DNA of 64,000 nt from an uncultured Candidatus Rokubacteria bacterium (GTDB lineage: Bacteria > Methylomirabilota > Methylomirabilia > Rokubacteriales > DASRDR01), in the NCBI GenBank assembly GCA_963805625.1, contig CAWDVE010000019.1, forward strand, positions 1 through 64,000, given 5' to 3'. The notes beneath the pieces are model-generated. The model was given only the letters and a program-made list of their open reading frames with translations. It was not told the DNA's origin and made no database searches. This document shows positions 44,892 through 60,837 of this stretch, piece after piece. The number at the start of each line of letters is the position of its first letter. The first letter of the stretch is position 1. A program made the translations under genes and the position numbers.

Positions 44892-46127
44892 TCAGCGCGT
44901 CGCTTTCGGCACGCTCTTCGCCACCAGCTCGCCGACCTGCTGGCCCACCGCGGAACCCACCTCAGTCGAGTAGCGGTAATGGACCCCGTCGTAGATGCGC
45001 GCGCTCGCCACCTCCTTCGTGAAGTCGGCGACGCTGGTCCAGGTGCGGACGGCGCCTCCGGCGGTCGGGCTGGCGGAGGTGAGCGTCGGCGTCGGCCCGG
45101 AGCCGATCTCGGCCGCGAGCACCGCGCCGAGGGACGCCGACACGATGCAGTGAGCGCACGGATACTCGGGATGCATCGGCGTGTCGATGAACGGCGTCCA
45201 GCCCGGGTCCCGGTCGGTCGCGTCGTTGCCGTCGATGTCGCCGTTGCGGATGGCGGTGACCGGGCGCCAGAGATTGTAGGTGTACTTGGCGTCGAAGACG
45301 GCGATCAGCGCGTCGTCCATGGCCATCGCGGCCAGCGCGAGCAGGCGCGCGTTGTCGGTGACGTCGCGGCCGGGCATGGCCGCGACCGAGCGCGCGATCG
45401 GCCAGTACACGGCCGGGGCCGTCGCCTCCCAGAACTTCGCGATCGCGGTCTGCTCCGGCGTGCGCTGGGTGCTGTTCCGCCCTCCGACCGCCTTGATCTC
45501 GTTGTAGTCCCGCGCCCAGGTCGCGCTGGTCAGCGCGGGCGGCGGGCCCGGACGGAACTGGTCGCCGCGGGTCATGACCCACGGGCGGCGCTTGCCCCAG
45601 TGAGGCACCGCCGGTCCCATCGTCGGCACGTAGACCCCGGCTGCGGTGGAGGGGCGGTAGACGTCGGGTGCGATCACCCCGTCGTCGGCGCACATCGCCA
45701 CGATGGCAGTCGCGGACTGCTCGCCGACCGCGATGCCCGCGATCTTCGCGGGGCCGTCAGGGACCGAGCCGAGCAGGGCCTGGTAGTCGGCATCGATGAC
45801 CGCCTGCTGGGCGGGCATGAGCTTCGAGAGCGCGGTGCGCGTCGCCGCGGCGACCGCCGCTTCCACCGACGCCCCCGGCGCCGGGGTGAGCTTGGCGCGC
45901 TGCGGAGGATAGCGGGCGGTGATCGTGTTGACCGCCTCGAAGACCGAGACCTGCACGATGGCCATCATCCTCACCGTGATGGGCGGTGCCGGGATGCGCG
46001 ACACCATGTCGGCGGCCTTCGCATTCGCATCGGTGACGATGTCCGCCTGGGCGACCGGGGCGCCGGCGAGGATCACCACGGCCAGAACACCGATCGCTGC
46101 GCTGATGAGTCCGCGTATGGTCTTCAT
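44892..46127 (-). CDS. Secreted vanadium haloperoxidase/PAP2-family protein
   Basis: Signal peptide; KYTYNLWRP, HPEYPCAH, RIYDGVHY; AGGAG RBS. Confidence 0.88.
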   Translation of the reverse strand: MKTIRGLISAAIGVLAVVILAGAPVAQADIVTDANAKAADMVSRIPAPPITVRMMAIVQVSVFEAVNTITARYPPQRAKLTPAPGASVEAAVAAATRTALSKLMPAQQAVIDADYQALLGSVPDGPAKIAGIAVGEQSATAIVAMCADDGVIAPDVYRPSTAAGVYVPTMGPAVPHWGKRRPWVMTRGDQFRPGPPPALTSATWARDYNEIKAVGGRNSTQRTPEQTAIAKFWEATAPAVYWPIARSVAAMPGRDVTDNARLLALAAMAMDDALIAVFDAKYTYNLWRPVTAIRNGDIDGNDATDRDPGWTPFIDTPMHPEYPCAHCIVSASLGAVLAAEIGSGPTPTLTSASPTAGGAVRTWTSVADFTKEVASARIYDGVHYRYSTEVGSAVGQQVGELVAKSVPKATR

Positions 46128-46728
46128 GTCGCCTGCTCCTTTCGAGCGTCTCCGGTGGAGTTCGACTCGTTCACGTCCAGACCGAGGGCCACGCGCCCCG
46201 CATAGGTGAGCTGGGCGCTGCCGCGGAGCGGGTGGTAGCGGGCGCCCTGGACGTCGCGGAAGAGCCGCTCGAGGCCCAGGTCCCGGTAGAAGCCGGCGCC
46301 CGAGGCGAGCTCTATCGCCGCCTCGACGGTCCGGATCGCCGCTCGGCCGGCCACCGCCCGGCCGATCATCACCTCGTTGGTCGTCTCGATCCCCGGGCGG
46401 GCGCCCGCCGCCGCGTCGATCATCTGGCGCAGCCCCATCCTCGCGGTGGCCAGCTCGTTCTCCATGCGGCCGGCCAGCTCCTGGGTGGCCGCGTCGTGGC
46501 GTCGTCCCGCCGCCGGGCGGAGCGCGAGGGCTCGGGCAGCTTCGGCGACGCCGACGTAGACGGCATAGATCAGGGGCAGGGCGTGCATCACGACGACGTG
46601 CCACGCGGGACCCCAGCGCCCCGCGGGGCGGCGCAGCCCGATCGCGGCGTCCGGCACGAAAACGCCGTCCAGCACGATGTCGTGCGAGCCGGCACCGCGC
46701 ATGCCGAGCGTTCGCCAGGTGTCCTCGA
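46124..46728 (-). pseudogene. Acyl-CoA dehydrogenase-like C-terminal remnant
   Basis: WRTLGMRGAGSHD, LERLFRDVQ; 5' half absent. Confidence 0.75.
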
Positions 46729-46992
46729 GGTGCAGGCCGACGCCGACCAGGCGAAGGGCAAGATCGAGGAAGCGAAGGCATCGCTCAAAGAGCTGGGGCT
46801 GAACGACTCGGTCGAATCTTCCGGCTAGCGTTGTAGATTGTAGGGCTTCCCTAACCGCGGCATTGGTATCAGCAAGAGTACCACTCCGAGGAGTCTGTAG
46901 GGCGGGGTGGGAGCCGGCGGGATCCGAGGGTCTACTCGGGAATCCCGCCGGGAACTACGCGGACTTACGGACGACGCTCACACGGCGGCTGA

Positions 46993-54136: not shown

Positions 54137-55067
54137 TCACCGCGACCGTACCCGTGGCCCGATCTGCGGGACCGGGCGCGCCTGGGCGGCCGCCGCGAAG
54201 ATCTCCATGAACGCGCGGGCGGCGGCGCTCAGCCGGCGTCGCGCGTGGTGGATCAGGTGGAAGTGCCGCACGATCCGGAGGCCGCGGACCCGGAGCGGCC
54301 GCAACCGGCCCGTCGCCCGCTCCCCCTGGATGGCGTAGACGGACACGAACGCCACGCCGAGCCCGGCCAGCACGCCCTGCTTGATCGCCTCGGTGTGCGG
54401 CAGCACCATGCCCGGGCGGTAGGCCACCCCGGCGCCGGCGAGCGCCCGCTCGGTCACCTGGCGGGTCGCCGAGCCAGGCTCCCGCAGCAGAAGCGGTTGG
54501 CCCGCCAGCTCGGCCGGACGGATGTCACGGCGGCGGGCCCACGCATGCGTCGGGCCGACGACGAGCACGAGCTCATCCTCCACGCGGGCCGCCAGGCTCG
54601 CCTCGGCCGGACTCGTCTCGCCGTCGCCGACCACCCCGAGGTCGAGCCCGCCCGCCCGCACCAGCGCCTCGATCTGCGCGGAGTTCCCGAGCTGCAGGGC
54701 CACCTCGATCGCGGGGTAGCGCTGCCGGAAGGCGCCGAGCACCCCGGGCACGACGTAGATCCCCGGGGTCGTGCTCGCCCCGATGGCCAGCGTACCCCGC
54801 TGCAGCCCCTGAAGATCGGCGATGGCGTGCCGGGCGTCCGTGAGCGTGGCGAACAGACGGGTCGCATGGTCCTCGAGGATTCGGCCGGCCTCCGTCAGGT
54901 GGACGACCCGGCCGAGGCGGTCGAAGAGGCGGGCGCCCAGCGCGCCCTCGAGCTCCCGGACGTGCTGGGAGAGGGGCTGGCTGGCTCAGATGGAGCGTCT
55001 CGGCGGCGTGCCGGAAGCTCCGGGCCCGGGCGACGGCCAGGAAGGCTTCGAATTGCCGCAGCGTCAT
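54137..55067 (-). pseudogene. CysL-like LysR regulator with a +1 frameshift
   Basis: MTLRQFEAF HTH; LSQPA/LSQHVRELE is broken in a C4 run at 54973-54976; IGASTTPG, REPGSATR; length 931 = 3n+1. Confidence 0.85.
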
Positions 55068-55210
55068 GGTTCGGGTTTCCCTTATCGAACCGATCTGAAT
55101 ATCCGATTGGACCTTATCGCACTGCCTCGCCGACAGTGCAAGGGCGGGGCGCTCCCGGGTGGGCGTCCCTTCGAGCCCCGGCGCCGCGGCCATCAGCGAG
55201 GAGGTCCACG

Positions 55211-55942
55211 ATGATCTTCCAGCAGTTCCTGTATCCCCAGACCGGGTGCGCCGCCTACGTCTTCGGGTGAGTGAGCCATGGGTCGTCTACGGTCGTAGAC
55301 CCACACGCCGACGACCTCGAGCGCTACCTGGAGTTCGCCGCCCTCAAGGGCACCAAGATCACGCACGTCCTCGACACGCACATCCAGGCGGACCATCGGT
55401 CGGGAGGCCGTGAACTCGCGGCCCGCACGGGCGCCGCCTACTGTCTCCACGAGGCTGCGGACGTGGCGTTCCCGTTCACGCCGCTCGCCGATGGCCAGGA
55501 GCTCGTCTGCGGGAACGTCGTGATCCGCGTGCTCCACACGCCCGGCCATACGCCCGAGAGCCTCTGTCTCGTCGTCACCGACAAGACGCGCGGGCCGGAG
55601 CCGTGGTTCGTGCTAACGGGCGACACGCTCTTCGTCGGCGCCGTCGGGCGGCCGGACCTCTCCGGCGCGGCCGAGGCGAGCGCCCGGGCGCTCCATCGGA
55701 GCCTCCGGCGGCTCCTCACCCTGCCAGACCACACCGAGATCTACCCGACCCACTTCTCGGGCGCCGCGTGCGGGAAGGGGATGAGCGGCAAGCCCATGTC
55801 CACGCTGGCCTTCGAGAAGCGGTTCAACCCGTTCCTGGGGATGGCGGGCGAGGACGAGTTCGTCGCGGCCCTGACGCGAGACCTTCCCCCGATGCCCGCG
55901 GACATGGCGGCCACGCTCCGCGCCAACCAGGGCCGCGCGTGA
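55211..55942 (+). CDS. MBL-fold persulfide dioxygenase-like protein, candidate selenoprotein (TGA at codon 20)
   Basis: GAGG RBS; MIFQQFLYPQTGCAAYVFG-TGA-VSHGSSTVVDP in one frame; THIQADH, TPGHTPES, GDTLF, GRPDL. Confidence 0.8.
55271..55306 (+). promoter_or_regulatory. Bacterial SECIS-like hairpin
   Basis: GTCTAC-GGTC-GTAGAC stem-loop extended by TGG/CCA and GTG/CAC; the G-initiated loop begins 20 nt after the TGA. Confidence 0.7.
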
Positions 55943-56024: not shown

Positions 56025-57284
56025 GTGAGTTCCGCGGCCGGAGCGGGCGCCATCCGGCTGGGGCTGGGGGCGAACCTCGGCCAGTTCTCGCTCCTCGTCT
56101 TGATCAATGCCTTCGTCGGGGCGATGGTCGGCCTGGAGCGCACCGTGGTCCCGCTCATCGGCGAGCGGGAGTTCGGCCTCACGTCGAAGACCGCGATCGT
56201 CTCGTTCATCGTGAGCTTCGGCGTGACCAAGGCGCTGCTGAACCTGGTGGCGGCCCGCCTGGCGGAGCGGTTCGGGCGGAAGCCGATCCTAGTGGCGGGG
56301 TGGCTGCTCGGCCTTCCGGTGCCCTTCATGATCATGTGGGCGCCGTCCTGGGGCTGGATCGACGCCGCCAACGTCCTGCTCGGCGCGAACCAGGCCTTCG
56401 CGTGGTCCATGACGGTGATCATGAAGGTCGACTTGGTCGGACCGCAGCGGCGGGGGCTCGCCCTCGGCCTCAACGAGTTCGCCGGGTACCTGTCCGTGGC
56501 CCTGTCGGCGTGGGCCACCGGGGAGATCGCCAGCCGCTACTCGCTCCGGCCCGAGCCCTTCTACTACGGCGGGATTGTCGCCGTCCTGGGACTCGGATTG
56601 TCGGCGCTGTTCGTTCGGGAGACGCGCGATCACGTCGCGCTCGAGATCGCGCAGAACGCGCCTCGGCACGGCCCGGTCGGGCCTGCGCTCTCCTTCAAGC
56701 GCGCGTTCGCCGTCACGACCTGGCGCGACCGGAACCTCGCCGCCGCGTGCCAGGCGGGGCTCGTCAACAACCTGAACGACGGGATGTCCTGGGGGATCTA
56801 CCCGCTCTTCTTCGGGAGCTACGGCCTCGGCGTCGCGGCGATCGGCGTCATCAAGGCCGTATACCCGGGAGTCTGGGGCGCGCTGCAGGTCATCACGGGA
56901 CCGCTCAGCGACCGGATCGGCCGCAAGGGGCTGATCGCCGGGGGGATGCTCGTCCAGGCCGGAGGCATCTGGCTCACGGTCCTGATGCCAGCCTATCCGT
57001 CGTGGATCGCGGGCGCCGTCCTCCAGGGGCTCGGGACGGCGATGGTCTACCCGACCCTGCTCGCGGTCATCGGGGACGTCGCGCACCCCTCGTGGCGCGC
57101 GACCAGCTACGGCGTCTACCGATTGTGGCGGGACCTCGGCTATGCGGTGGGTGCGCTTCTTGCGGGACTCATCGCCGACTGGCTGGGCATGGCCGCGGCG
57201 ATCCACGTCGTGGCCATGCTCACCCTACTGTCGGGCCTCGTCGTCCTCGTCCGCATGCGGGAGACCCTGGGCGGTCTTCGGTGA
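56025..57284 (+). CDS. MFS transporter
   Basis: About 12 TM helices; ARLAERFGRK and GPLSDRIGRK motif A; GVYRLWRD. Confidence 0.92.
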   Translation: MSSAAGAGAIRLGLGANLGQFSLLVLINAFVGAMVGLERTVVPLIGEREFGLTSKTAIVSFIVSFGVTKALLNLVAARLAERFGRKPILVAGWLLGLPVPFMIMWAPSWGWIDAANVLLGANQAFAWSMTVIMKVDLVGPQRRGLALGLNEFAGYLSVALSAWATGEIASRYSLRPEPFYYGGIVAVLGLGLSALFVRETRDHVALEIAQNAPRHGPVGPALSFKRAFAVTTWRDRNLAAACQAGLVNNLNDGMSWGIYPLFFGSYGLGVAAIGVIKAVYPGVWGALQVITGPLSDRIGRKGLIAGGMLVQAGGIWLTVLMPAYPSWIAGAVLQGLGTAMVYPTLLAVIGDVAHPSWRATSYGVYRLWRDLGYAVGALLAGLIADWLGMAAAIHVVAMLTLLSGLVVLVRMRETLGGLR

Positions 57285-57374: not shown

Positions 57375-57638
57375 ATGACAGATGGCGCCGAGAAGATGAT
57401 CGCCCGCGCCCCACTCCACTACTCGGGGTCGGCCGACGGCTACGCGGAGTACTGGAGTCCGGTCATTCGCCCCCTCGCCCGACGGTTGCTCGATGCGCTG
57501 CCGTGGGATCGAGCAGGCCGGATCCTCGACGTCGGCACGGGGACGGGCGCGCTCATCCCCGACATCCTCGGCCTCGCGCCAACGGCCCGCGTCGTCGGGA
57601 TCGACCCGTTGCGGAACCGGTGTCAAGGTCCGCGGTGA
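57375..57638 (+). pseudogene. Class I SAM methyltransferase N-terminal remnant
   Basis: ILDVGTGTG, VVGID, then truncated. Confidence 0.7.
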
Positions 57639-58441
57639 TGCTCATGCTCGCCTCCTATCTCGCCGAGAACACGCGGCCTACGTATGAGCGCCTCGCGACA
57701 TGGCTCACCGCGCGCCTCGGCGAGCCCGCGTCCCTGCTCGGCGGCGTGGCTTGGGAGGAGCGTGTGGCGATGCTGGACGACGGGCGGGTGCACGTCGCAT
57801 TTATCTGCGGCTGGTCGTACATCCAACGCCACGACCGGCCGGCGCGGCCGGTCGACCTCTTGTGCGCGCCAGTCATGGCCCCGCCCCGGTATGAGGACCG
57901 GCCGATCTACTTCACGGACGTGGTCGTCCGCTACGACAGCCCCCTGTGGTCTTTCGCGGATCTCCGGGGTCAGCGCTACGCGTACAACGACCGCAGCTCG
58001 CACTCCGGCTACAACGTCCCCAGAGATTACCTGCTCCGGGTCGGTGAGACCCGCGGCTACTTCGGTCGCGCGGTCGCCTCGGGGTCTCACCAGACCTCGA
58101 TCCGGATGGTCGAAGCGGGCGAGGTCGACGCCTCGGGGATCGACAGCACGATGCTGGACGTCGAGCGCCAGCGGCGTCCCGACGTGAGCACGACGCTGCG
58201 CACCGTGGCCGTCCTCGGGCCATCGCCGATTCGGCCGATCATCGTGACCCGTGCACTCCCCGAGAATCAGAGAGAGCGGCTCCGCGCCGCACTCCTCACG
58301 ATGCACGAGGATGCCGAGGGTCGCGCGATCCTGGGCGACGGACTGATCGCCCGCTTCGTCCGCGTGCAGGACGCCGACTACGACCCGATCCGCGCGATGG
58401 TCGCCCGGGCGGTCGAGGTCGGCTTCATGGAGCTACGGTGA
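57638..58441 (+). CDS. PhnD-like phosphate/phosphonate-binding protein
   Basis: AFICG, DLRG..AYND..SHSGY, SGSH, IDS, DYDPIR; no signal peptide. Confidence 0.85.
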   Translation: MLMLASYLAENTRPTYERLATWLTARLGEPASLLGGVAWEERVAMLDDGRVHVAFICGWSYIQRHDRPARPVDLLCAPVMAPPRYEDRPIYFTDVVVRYDSPLWSFADLRGQRYAYNDRSSHSGYNVPRDYLLRVGETRGYFGRAVASGSHQTSIRMVEAGEVDASGIDSTMLDVERQRRPDVSTTLRTVAVLGPSPIRPIIVTRALPENQRERLRAALLTMHEDAEGRAILGDGLIARFVRVQDADYDPIRAMVARAVEVGFMELR

Positions 58442-58697
58442 CCCGCGCGGGCCGGACGCCGGCTCATCGGGTCGCGTCCCAGCACCTGAAGGAGATGAAT
58501 CACTCGCTTGAGCCCATGGCACCGCACCTGTCAAGATGTTGGCCGCGTTCATGGGCGAAGAGGAGAGGCTGACGACACTGAACGCGAAGTATATGAACCG
58601 CCATCGGCGGCGTGCCATCGCCTCGTGTCGACGCCCATTGACGCTTCTCGCGCGCCCGGCGTAGAGTCTCGCTACCGTGACACTGGGGGGCTCAGCC

Positions 58698-59718
58698 GTG
58701 ACAAGGCGTGGCCGCGGGCCCGGCAGTCGTCGTCCCTTCTGGTGGTGCGGCGTCGCACTGGTCGCGTTGCTCACCGGCCCGGCGCCGCCCGGTCGAAGCG
58801 CCGTCGCGGCCGAGCGCACTGGATCCGTCAAGATCGGGGCACTGACGCAATCTTGGGGTGCGACACCCGAGATGGTCGGCCTCCGTGACGGGCTGGTGGC
58901 GCTGGGATATCGAGAGGGCGAGCAGTTCGTCATCGGCGTCCGGTTCACGCAAGGGGACATCGCCGCGCTTCCGGCGGCGGCCCACGACCTGGTCCAGTCC
59001 GGGGTGGACCTCATTTTCGCCATCGATGTGACCGCGGCGAGGGCGGCGCAGCTGGCAACCAACCGGATTCCGATCGTCGTCGGCCTCCTTCGTGGGCGAT
59101 CCGGTCGAACTGGGGCTCGTCCAGAGCTACGCTCGGCCCGGCGGCAATATCACCGGTGTCCTCCATGAGGACACCGACTTGAGCGCGAAGCGCCTGGAAA
59201 TCTTCAAGGAGATGCTGTCGGGCCTGAAGCGCGTCCTGTTCCCCTATGATCCAAACGATACGGACGCGGCGGCGGCCGCACGCCTGTACCGCGCCGCCGC
59301 CCGGCAGCTCGGCCTCGTTCTCGTCGAGAAGCCCGTGCGGACCGAGGAGGAGGCGCGGACGACCCTCGCAAAGCTCCGGAAGGGCGAGGTGGATGGGATC
59401 ATCGCCCCGTCGAACCTGTCGCTGAACATTCCCGGCGTCGTCCTGGACGCCACGTCGCAGCGCGCCATCCCGACCATGTTCACCGGAGCGTTCTACGTCG
59501 AGCGCGGCGGGCTGGTCAGCTACGGTCCAGATTTCTACGAATCGGGCCGCCAGGCGGCCCGCCTGATGGACAAGATCGTCAAAGGCGAGAATCCGGGGCG
59601 GATCCCGGTCGAGGCGAACCCGAAGATGGAGCTGGCGATCAACATGAAGGTCGCGAGGGCCCTGAAGCTCACGATCTCGCCAGCGGTCTCGCAGCGCGCC
59701 AACCGGCTCATCGAGTGA
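58698..59718 (+). pseudogene. ABC substrate-binding protein (Trp/Tyr type), frameshifted paralog
   Basis: Similar throughout to 59824-60837; frame changes near 59075-59095 between PIV and VGDPVELG. Confidence 0.8.
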
Positions 59719-59823
59719 TGGCGACGTGGGGAGGCGGACGTCAAGAAGCGACGAGGCGGCGATGCGCGAGACGCTGGGTGCCGTGCGCTGATGCGACCCA
59801 CCGGGATTGAAGCGTGGTAAGGT

Positions 59824-60837
59824 TTGATCGCGGCGTCCGCTAGAGCGCTGCGCCCTCGCTGGCAGTGCGGGCTGGCCCTCCTTTGGCTGTTCGCGGGCAC
59901 CGCCTTCGACGGCCGGAGCGTGGACGCGGCCGAGCGCACGGGACCTGTCAAGATCGGGGCCCTGACGCATTCCTGGGGTGTGACACCCCAGATGGTTGGC
60001 CTCCGGGACGGCCTCCTCGCGCTGGGCTACCGAGAGGGCGAGCAGTTTGTCATCGGCGTCAGGTTCACGCAAGGGGACGCGAGCCTCCTTCCCGAGGCGG
60101 CCCAGGGCCTGATCCAGGACGGGGCAGACATTCTTTTCCCCACGGACGCGAACTCGGCGAGGGCGGCCCAGAAGGCCACGACCCGGGTCCCCATCGTCTT
60201 TGCCGCAGTCGTGGGCGACCCCGTCGAGTTGGGGCTCGTGCGGAGCTTTGCCCGGCCAGGGGGCAACGTCACCGGGGTGACCGACGGCGACCTCGAGCTG
60301 AACCCAAAGCGCCTGGAGATCTTCAAGGACCTGATTCCGGGCTTGAAGCGCGTGCTGCTTTGCTACGATCCAAGCGATCCGCACGCGGCAGCGGCCGCGC
60401 GTGCGTACCGCGACGGGGCCCGTCAACTCGGCGTGGTGCTCGTGGAGAAGCCGGTACGGACCGAGGCGGAGGCGCGAGCGACCCTCGCCAGGCTCCGGAA
60501 GGCCGAGGTCGACGGGATCCTCACCCCGCCGACGACCTCGCTGAACATCCCTGGCGTCGTGCTGGAAGCCACGGCGGAGCGCAGGCTCCCGGCGATGTTC
60601 AACGCCGCGTTCATGGTCGAGCGCGGCGGCCTCGTGAGCTACGGCCCGGACTGGTACGAAACGGGCCGCCAGGCCGCGCGCCTGGTCGACAAGATCGTGA
60701 AAGGTGAGGATCCCGGACAGATCCCGGTGGAGGTGAACCCGAAGGTCGAGCTCGCGATCAACATGAAGACGGCCAAGGCGTTGAGACTCTTGATTCCACC
60801 CAGTGTCCTGCAGCGTGCCAACCGGCTCATCGAATAA
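59824..60837 (+). CDS. ABC substrate-binding protein (Trp/Tyr type)
   Basis: GDPVELGLVRSFARPGGNVTG, GGLVSYGP, INMKTAKAL; start uncertain. Confidence 0.9.
   Translation: MIAASARALRPRWQCGLALLWLFAGTAFDGRSVDAAERTGPVKIGALTHSWGVTPQMVGLRDGLLALGYREGEQFVIGVRFTQGDASLLPEAAQGLIQDGADILFPTDANSARAAQKATTRVPIVFAAVVGDPVELGLVRSFARPGGNVTGVTDGDLELNPKRLEIFKDLIPGLKRVLLCYDPSDPHAAAAARAYRDGARQLGVVLVEKPVRTEAEARATLARLRKAEVDGILTPPTTSLNIPGVVLEATAERRLPAMFNAAFMVERGGLVSYGPDWYETGRQAARLVDKIVKGEDPGQIPVEVNPKVELAINMKTAKALRLLIPPSVLQRANRLIE

What the first reader, a model, noticed from the sequence alone, without database searches (positions are those of the whole stretch)
55211..55942. Candidate new selenoprotein: persulfide-dioxygenase-like MBL enzyme with C-x6-U N-terminus
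Seen: an RBS and ATG at 55211, 19 codons matching the first MBL strands, TGA at 55268-55270, then the rest of the fold in the same frame. A hairpin with a G-led loop follows 20 nt later and uses codons rare in this gene (TCT, GTA, CCA), suggesting selection on RNA structure. The metal motif is HIQADH rather than HxHxDH. Known: bacterial SECIS elements lie immediately 3' of the UGA. From memory, homologs read SYLFGC at this position. Inference: Sec20, possibly paired with Cys13, handles persulfide or selenosulfide. I do not recall this family among established selenoproteins.
Basis: partly seen in the sequence, partly recalled or inferred. Interest (0 to 1): 0.88.

Follow-up and report, generated by a model that had tools for sequence, protein, structure and literature searches.

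The report
Selenocysteine-containing CstB-type persulfide dioxygenases
A soil bacterium's likely sulfur-detoxifying enzyme carries an in-frame UGA at codon 20 that relatives either keep or swap for cysteine, so it very likely encodes selenocysteine in an enzyme family missing from the 2026 selenoprotein catalogue I could read, and a second branch of the family has its UGA at the catalytic cysteine instead.

Summary
Confirmed. Gene 55211-55942 reads through a TGA at codon 20. In 67 first loci the column is TGA in 52 and TGC/TGT in 9, never Trp. Carriers span Rokubacteria, NC10, Acidobacteriota and one Chloroflexota genome. The host has selA, Sec-type selD, tRNA-Sec and a selB split by one missing base. 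A SECIS-type hairpin follows in 43 of 52 TGA genes against 20 of 85 Cys genes, with a compensatory pair.

The protein is a stand-alone version of the dioxygenase domain of S. aureus CstB, almost always followed by an MFS gene. Sec20 matches CstB C20, which is persulfidated and sulfonated for unknown reasons. The proposed Cys13-Sec20 pair is unsupported.

New here: 11 acidobacterial CstB-like rhodanese fusions carry TGA plus a hairpin at the catalytic loop cysteine (CstB C201) instead.

No MBL-fold family is in the 119-family 2026 catalogue; two relevant papers were not held. This scan noted the codon-20 family before, on another genome (e1-2098762). Selenium incorporation and activity are untested.

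The parts
55198..55204 (+). Shine-Dalgarno-like GAGGAGG, 6 nt before the ATG
   Evidence: sequence; similar purine runs before most homologous starts
55211..55942 (+). stand-alone CstB-type persulfide-dioxygenase domain (MBL fold), 243 aa with read-through
55268..55270 (+). in-frame TGA, predicted Sec20 (column of CstB C20)
   Evidence: TGA/TGC/TGT alternation; alignment to 3R2U
55285..55300 (+). predicted bacterial SECIS hairpin GTCTAC[GGTC]GTAGAC, loop 20 nt after the TGA
55247..55249 (+). Cys13 (column of CstB Q13, near the active site; not a likely partner of Sec20)
55379..55396 (+). H57-I-Q59-A-D61-H62 motif; H57 matches the CstB Fe ligand H56; Q59 replaces CstB H58
55547..55549 (+). H113, matches the CstB Fe ligand H119
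   Evidence: 48 of 48
55622..55624 (+). D138, matches the CstB Fe ligand D145
   Evidence: D in 35 of 48, H in 13
55769..55774 (+). C187-G188, matches the CstB catalytic loop C201-G202; this column is TGA in 11 acidobacterial fusions
   Evidence: (47 of 47 rows that reach it)
56025..57284 (+). MFS transporter gene directly downstream; conserved partner
   Evidence: (49 of 50 Sec forms, 65 of 69 single-domain Cys forms, 0 of 8 fusions)
54137..55067 (-). divergent LysR-family regulator, broken here by one extra base near 54976

Best explanation
The gene encodes a stand-alone CstB-type persulfide dioxygenase domain whose codon-20 UGA is very likely read as selenocysteine, and Sec20 probably acts as a surface sulfur-relay site away from the metal centre.

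Steps: (1) Shown: the UGA alternates only with Cys codons in the family, the host has Sec machinery, and a conserved hairpin follows. (2) Inferred, about 0.95: SelB binds the hairpin and inserts Sec. (3) Inferred from homology, about 0.75: Fe(II) on H57/H113/D138 oxidises sulfane sulfur loaded on loop C187, as in CstB. (4) Inferred, about 0.4: Sec20, a stronger nucleophile than Cys (established knowledge), collects or passes on sulfane sulfur or the oxidised product. It would act across a subunit interface or with a separate sulfurtransferase, doing part of the job that a fused rhodanese does in CstB. (5) Inferred, about 0.5: the MFS exports the product. The confidence value is for steps 2 and 3 together.
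For: Column 20 is TGA in 52, TGC/TGT in 9, frameshifted in 3 and Ser in 3 distant rows, of 67 loci (4 TGA rows are duplicates). It is TGA in 6 and Cys in 74 of 80 metagenome loci, and Cys in 43 of 43 full-length database homologs (one read by eye). Host: selA 576 bits, selD with its own TGA, tRNA-Sec(UCA) 76.9 bits and the only UCA tRNA. selA is in 25 of 25 TGA carriers and 20 of 23. Edaphobacter aggregans, with no sel gene found, has Cys inside the Terriglobia group that otherwise has TGA. Hairpin: 43 of 52 TGA against 20 of 85 Cys genes; one pair is CG in 12 and UA in 7 of 19, another AU in 10 and GU in 9. In a 21-gene clade the only A/T-ending major codons among 126 conserved columns are 20, 27, 30 and 31. 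Best structures are 3TP9 and CstB 3R2U, TM 0.87-0.90. CstB C20 is persulfidated or sulfonated, 'significance unknown' (PMC12934615). Column 20 is Cys or Sec in every single-domain MFS-type row, but Cys in only 2 of 16 rhodanese fusions.
Against: No experiment shows selenium or activity. The host selB lacks one base at a C/G run; 3 of 4 same-genus genomes have it whole, so an assembly error is likely but not shown. selA is common in these lineages (52 of 61), so co-occurrence discriminates weakly. Only 4 of 12 Terriglobia TGA genes give even a marginal model hairpin. Window folding z-scores are flat. Against step 4: CstB C408A is inactive although C20 is present and can be persulfidated, and C20 is about 29 A from Fe (PMC12934615). 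Six of 6 Rokubacteria fusions keep Cys20 despite having a rhodanese. Q59 and C13 differ from CstB H58 and Q13.
Confidence: 0.72

Rival explanations
1. Sec is inserted, but Sec20 is a redox sensor or an oxidation-resistant protective site, not part of the catalytic sulfur path.
For: CstB C20 is far from Fe and cannot rescue C408A (PMC12934615). Position 20 is not Cys in 14 of 16 fusions.
Against: Cys or Sec is invariant in the single-domain family. TGA rows are not one clade (AU p 6e-8) and use different hairpins, which suggests repeated selection on this residue.
Confidence: 0.35
2. The enzyme works on selenium species (selenopersulfide, selenide) and the MFS exports a selenium product.
For: Some loci have a Sec-type arsenite methyltransferase (L054, L055, L071) or a cysteine desulfurase nearby. 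The window's LysR and binding protein score weakly, below cut-off, with selenium-linked NCBIfam models.
Against: The same gene pair with Cys is common (65 of 69), and one genome with no sel genes found has the Cys form. The neighbours named are not conserved.
Confidence: 0.12
3. The TGA is a real stop (pseudogene, sequencing error, or restart at GTG21 giving the 223-aa product that databases list).
For: The assembly has frameshifts in selB and in the adjacent LysR. TGA is followed by GTG in the window. Databases list post-TGA fragments: 77 of 120 hits are under 240 aa, 53 starting at residue 21.
Against: The same TGA is in 48 distinct genes of several classes with both flanks conserved. Codon 21 is GTG in only 4 of 52. 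The restart would drop the first two strands of the fold.
Confidence: 0.03
4. UGA is read as Trp or Cys through a changed genetic code or a suppressor tRNA.
For: Cys is the alternative residue in homologs.
Against: TGA ends 966 of 1447 long high-GC3 ORFs of the host, and the only UCA tRNA found is tRNA-Sec. The column is never Trp in the rows examined.
Confidence: 0.02
5. The protein is a glyoxalase II-like hydrolase, as database names say.
For: JGI names on homologs; weak TIGR03413 hit.
Against: 78 bits against a cut-off of 200.8. The second His of HxHxDH is Gln. The CstB Cys-Gly loop is invariant. Glyoxalase II structures fit worse, TM 0.63-0.73.
Confidence: 0.08

Closest known systems
Staphylococcus aureus CstB, persulfide dioxygenase-rhodanese fusion (PDB 3R2U; 28MT-28MY in PMC12934615)
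   Same: Fold (TM 0.87-0.90). Fe triad H56/H119/D145 = H57/H113/D138; loop C201-G202-K203 = C187-G188-K189; F148 = F141; R154 = R147; C20 = Sec20.
   Different: No fused pseudo-rhodanese or rhodanese domain (243 aa). Sec for Cys at 20, Gln for H58, Cys for Q13. An MFS gene and a LysR or ArsR-rhodanese regulator as neighbours.
Alicyclobacillus acidocaldarius beta-lactamase/rhodanese protein (PDB 3TP9)
   Same: Best sequence and fold match (E 1.6e-48; 40% identity, TM 0.89); Cys at column 20 and the Cys-Gly loop.
   Different: A 474-aa fusion with Cys; I read nothing on its function.
ETHE1-type persulfide dioxygenases (4CHL, 4YSB, 8ZBD, 5VE4)
   Same: Single MBL domain with a mononuclear Fe site; 8ZBD also has Cys at column 20.
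   Different: They lack the Cys-Gly loop and use glutathione persulfide (PMC12934615); lower fit, TM 0.82-0.85.
Known sulfur-transfer selenoproteins: rhodanese-like forms 1-5, type III SQR selenoprotein, DsrE-like, YeeE/YedE (Table 1 of PMC13188914)
   Same: Sec for a reactive Cys in sulfane-sulfur handling proteins; bSECIS right after the UGA.
   Different: None has an MBL fold; 'lactamase', 'dioxygenase' and 'hydrolase' do not occur in that paper.
Trypanosome SelTryp (PMC1557815, passages read)
   Same: A selenoprotein with an MBL fold plus rhodanese domains.
   Different: Eukaryotic; Sec lies in a C-terminal CxxU tail, not in the MBL domain.

Membership tests
Bacterial selenoprotein | In-frame UGA aligned to Cys of homologs, both flanks conserved | tested here: met
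Bacterial selenoprotein | bSECIS: G in the first two loop positions, loop 3-9 nt, 16-37 nt from UGA, stem of 4 bp or more, MFE at most -7.5 (model quoted in PMC13188914) | tested here: met
   window: spacing 20, loop GGTC, 6 bp, -9.8; 40 of 40 non-Terriglobia TGA genes give such a hairpin, only 4 of 12 Terriglobia; my own script, not bSECISearch
Bacterial selenoprotein | selA, selC and selD in the host | tested here: met
Bacterial selenoprotein | intact selB in the host | tested here: inconclusive
   two pieces, one base missing at a C/G run; whole in 3 of 4 same-genus genomes
Bacterial selenoprotein | Selenium physically in the protein | not testable with these tools
   needs 75Se labelling or MS
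CstB-type persulfide dioxygenase | His2Asp Fe(II) facial triad | tested here: met
   H57, H113, D138 by alignment; metal binding itself not tested; Terriglobia forms have His at 138
CstB-type persulfide dioxygenase | Mobile loop with Cys-Gly (C201-G202) | tested here: met
   C187-G188 in 47 of 47 rows that reach it; loop low-confidence in the model
CstB-type persulfide dioxygenase | H58 (water-binding) and Q13 second-shell residues | tested here: not met
   Q59 and C13 in the window
CstB (full fusion) | Fused pseudo-rhodanese and rhodanese with C408 | tested here: not met
   stop after residue 243; no rhodanese hit in the window's contig
CstB-type persulfide dioxygenase | Persulfide-, Fe- and O2-dependent turnover to thiosulfate | not testable with these tools
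   needs an enzyme assay
Glyoxalase II / di-metal MBL hydrolase | HxHxDH and the TIGR03413 cut-off | tested here: not met
   HIQADH; 78.2 against 200.8 bits
ETHE1-type persulfide dioxygenase | No CstB loop; glutathione-binding site | tested here: not met
   the loop is present; glutathione-binding residues not mapped one by one

The most novel reading that the evidence does not exclude
CstB-type persulfide dioxygenases have taken up selenocysteine at two separate sites. One is the unexplained surface Cys20 of a rhodanese-free, MFS-coupled subfamily, in several lineages with different SECIS hairpins; there Sec20 is the sulfur relay that makes a fused rhodanese unnecessary. The other is the catalytic loop cysteine of an acidobacterial fusion subfamily, which would place a selenol next to an O2-activating non-heme Fe(II) centre.
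Probability: 0.35. Interest if true: 0.88.

Novelty: new variant of a known kind. Interest (0 to 1): 0.72.

Why it matters
It adds an MBL-fold oxygenase family, with two Sec positions, to a catalogue of 119 prokaryotic selenoprotein families that lists none (PMC13188914). It shows that public databases cut these proteins at the UGA and label them glyoxalases. [quoted passage not shown] The Sec187 fusions offer a natural selenium version of the residue that CstB self-sulfonates, a direct probe of that mechanism. The hosts are soil and sediment lineages known mostly from metagenomes.

Tried and rejected
1. Folding z-scores of the window hairpin showed nothing; the support comes from conservation.
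2. Cys13-Sec20 pairing: rejected.
3. Q59 looked tied to Sec20 (39 of 40 non-Terriglobia Sec forms against 1 of 74 single-domain Cys forms). It broke down: 5 of 6 close Chloroflexota Cys forms have Q59 and Terriglobia Sec forms have H59. It is a clade trait.
4. One origin of the Sec20 rows is rejected (AU p 6e-8; 59 of 102 rows, N-terminal residues removed). The group was named after a first tree, and the test cannot tell repeated gains from one gain and losses.
5. Three TGA carriers lack selA (G032, G038, G042; 92-95% complete). All three have a TGA-type selD, G032 has selB, none gave tRNA-Sec, and G038 and G042 lacked even EF-Tu hits. I read this as incomplete assemblies; not proven. G342 (Sec187) lacks selA and G437 (Sec20) lacks selB in the same way.
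6. Laying 4 of 21 runs gave short contigs only. No listed piece bridges the TGA, so expression and the two frameshifts stay open.
7. No promoter or terminator match.
8. No dimer model was obtained, so how close Sec20 comes to C187 of a partner subunit is open.
9. Literature: searches found no report of a Sec-containing MBL or persulfide dioxygenase in bacteria (listings only). Deng et al. 2026 (Cell Rep; groundwater MAGs, novel candidates, a Methylomirabilota MAG with 63 selenoproteins) and Haft and Tolstoy 2025 were not held. Haft's families appear in Table 1 of PMC13188914; Deng's candidates may include this family. The BSepDB supplement held only a cut Table S1. deep-Sep's 4 supplements had no hit.

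Full report
**Observation.** The window has GAGGAGG at 55198-55204, ATG at 55211, 19 sense codons, TGA at 55268-55270 and an open frame to TGA at 55940-55942. The motif is THIQADH. The hairpin GTCTAC[GGTC]GTAGAC has its loop 20 nt after the TGA. TCT, GTA and CCA are rare in this gene: 1 of 11, 1 of 16 and 2 of 16. The region's folding energy is no better than shuffles (z -0.30 to -0.96). The window is G000:C19; its closest named matches are Rokubacteria / Methylomirabilota MAGs at 81-92% identity.

**The TGA is conserved and alternates with Cys.** Among 61 genomes, 23 of the 24 best hits carry one TGA; the 24th is a frameshifted copy. Over the first 67 loci, column 20 is TGA in 52, TGC/TGT in 9, frameshifted in 3 and Ser in 3 distant rows; 48 distinct TGA genes remain after duplicates. 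Carriers are Rokubacteria, NC10, Pyrinomonadaceae, Terriglobia and other Acidobacteriota, plus one genome of the Chloroflexota sample (L194). Of 80 metagenome loci, 6 have TGA and 74 Cys. Of 120 listed database homologs, the 43 full-length ones have Cys there; 77 are shorter, and 53 of those start at residue 21, just after the column. Trp was never seen.

**Machinery.** The host has selA (576 bits), selD with its own TGA, and tRNA-Sec(UCA), the only UCA tRNA found. TGA ends 966 of 1447 long high-GC3 ORFs, so the code is standard. selB is in two pieces: one base is missing at a C/G run relative to three same-genus genomes where it is whole. I read this as an assembly error, unproven. selA is in 25 of 25 TGA carriers and 2 of 3 Cys carriers. 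The exception, Edaphobacter aggregans, gave no selA, selB, selD or tRNA-Sec and has Cys within the Terriglobia group. Among relatives, 20 of 23 TGA carriers have selA; the other three have a TGA-type selD. The baseline is high (52 of 61), so this test is weak.

**SECIS.** I scripted the bSECIS model quoted in PMC13188914. With a G[GU] loop and the hairpin within 1 kcal/mol of the local optimum, 43 of 52 TGA genes pass against 20 of 85 Cys genes (kin are not independent). All 40 non-Terriglobia TGA genes give a hairpin; only 4 of 12 Terriglobia do, marginally (3-bp upper stem). In the window's group (19 rows) one pair is CG in 12 and UA in 7, another AU in 10 and GU in 9; 84% of cells pair, against at most 58% when slid. 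A second group uses GCTGTGG[TGGAT]CCACAGC. In its 21 genes the only A/T-ending major codons among 126 conserved columns are 20, 27, 30 and 31.

**The protein.** Best solved relatives by sequence and fold are 3TP9 and S. aureus CstB 3R2U (E 1.6e-48 and 2.1e-41; TM 0.87-0.90), ahead of ETHE1-type enzymes (0.82-0.85) and glyoxalase II (0.63-0.73) (model pLDDT 87.7 with Cys at 20). I read the abstract, the first part of Results, the Discussion, the figure legends and passages of the CstB preprint PMC12934615; its supplements were not seen. CstB's Fe ligands H56/H119/D145 match H57/H113/D138, the catalytic loop C201-G202 matches C187-G188 (47 of 47 rows that reach it), and C20 matches Sec20. [quoted passage not shown] Differences: no rhodanese domains, Gln for H58, Cys for Q13.

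**Cys13 is not a likely partner.** It begins, and Sec20 ends, the same predicted strand. CstB Q13 belongs to the active-site shell. It is Ala in 13 of 48 Sec forms.

**Neighbourhood.** An MFS gene follows in 49 of 50 Sec forms and 65 of 69 single-domain Cys forms, and in 0 of 8 fusions (rows with enough flank). Upstream lies a divergent LysR in Rokubacteria (29 of 64 loci) or an ArsR-rhodanese fusion in Terriglobia (13 of 64). The window's LysR has one extra base near 54976.

**History.** The Sec20 rows are not one clade (AU p 6e-8; 59 of 102 rows, N-terminus removed) and use different hairpins. That fits repeated gain, or one gain with several reversions and remodelled hairpins.

**A second Sec site.** A search of 301 Acidobacteriota genomes gave four CstB-like rhodanese fusions with TGA at the column of C187. 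In their class, 11 of 26 genomes have the gene, and all 11 carry that TGA in HVAGST-U-GRVTSGK. All 11 have a 6-7 bp hairpin with loop AGGT 19 nt on; 2 of the 11 fold at only -6.3 kcal/mol. Ten of the 11 genomes have selA and the eleventh has a TGA-type selD. None has Cys at column 20; all keep Cys13. Related Chloroflexota fusions have Cys at 187.

**Mechanism.** Sec insertion is inferred at about 0.95 and CstB-like persulfide oxidation at about 0.75. For Sec20 I favour a sulfur-relay role (about 0.4): the column is Cys or Sec in every single-domain MFS-type row but Cys in only 2 of 16 fusions, and CstB C20 takes up sulfur. Against it, CstB C408A is dead although C20 is present, the distance is large, and 6 of 6 Rokubacteria fusions keep Cys20. 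A sensor or protective role is nearly as likely (0.35). The oligomer geometry is open.

**Novelty.** Table 1 of PMC13188914 (119 families; parts 1 and 2 of section 7 read) has no MBL-fold entry. Term searches of PMC12013277, PMC13326102 and PMC13745706 found none. NCBIfam of June 2026 gave no selenoprotein model and no hit over cut-off. Eight paper searches found no report. Deng et al. 2026 and Haft and Tolstoy 2025 were not held; the first may list this family. Eukaryotic SelTryp has an MBL domain, but its Sec is in a C-terminal tail. This scan noted the Sec20 family before, on another genome (e1-2098762); that note agrees with a reading I had reached first and is not independent support. A word search showed no note on the Sec187 form.

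**Verdict.** Real; a new selenoprotein variant of CstB-type persulfide dioxygenases, with two Sec positions. Interest 0.72.

Noticed in passing
L162:1178-2566 (G302); L178-L188: CstB-like dioxygenase-rhodanese fusions with in-frame TGA at the catalytic loop Cys (CstB C201) and a hairpin GTGGCA[AGGT]TGCCAC; 11 of 26 genomes of one acidobacterial class.
   Followed up: yes
G000:C21:223609-225488 (L003): Host selB split by a single missing base at a C/G run near 224980; whole in 3 of 4 same-genus genomes.
   Followed up: partly
window 54137-55067 (-): Divergent LysR gene with one extra base near 54976 relative to 5 related loci; error or real is open.
   Followed up: partly
window 57375-57638: Methyltransferase fragment; about 760 nt present in the closest relative (L039) are missing near 57610, just before a PhnD-like binding-protein gene (57503-58441).
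   Followed up: no
L057-L070, L158, L159: Terriglobia-type members have His at the column of the Fe ligand D138, Ala13 and His59, which suggests a different metal site; most have an upstream ArsR-rhodanese regulator.
   Followed up: partly
L055:6203-7000, L054:224-1000, L071:3261-4000: Arsenite-methyltransferase-like genes with in-frame TGA (WTx-U-IxG) near three members of the family; L055 has a second methyltransferase with a further TGA.
   Followed up: partly
G000:C10:1686886-1687965: Host paralog: dioxygenase with Ser at column 20, the Cys loop kept, and an in-frame rhodanese hit behind it.
   Followed up: no
L077:2314-3039: A TGA-20 member with Arg at the otherwise invariant C187; variant or error.
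   Followed up: no
window 44892-46781 (-): Vanadium haloperoxidase / PAP2-like gene.
   Followed up: no
window 58677-60837: Two tandem genes that read like ABC substrate-binding proteins; the first is split over two frames near 59100.
   Followed up: no
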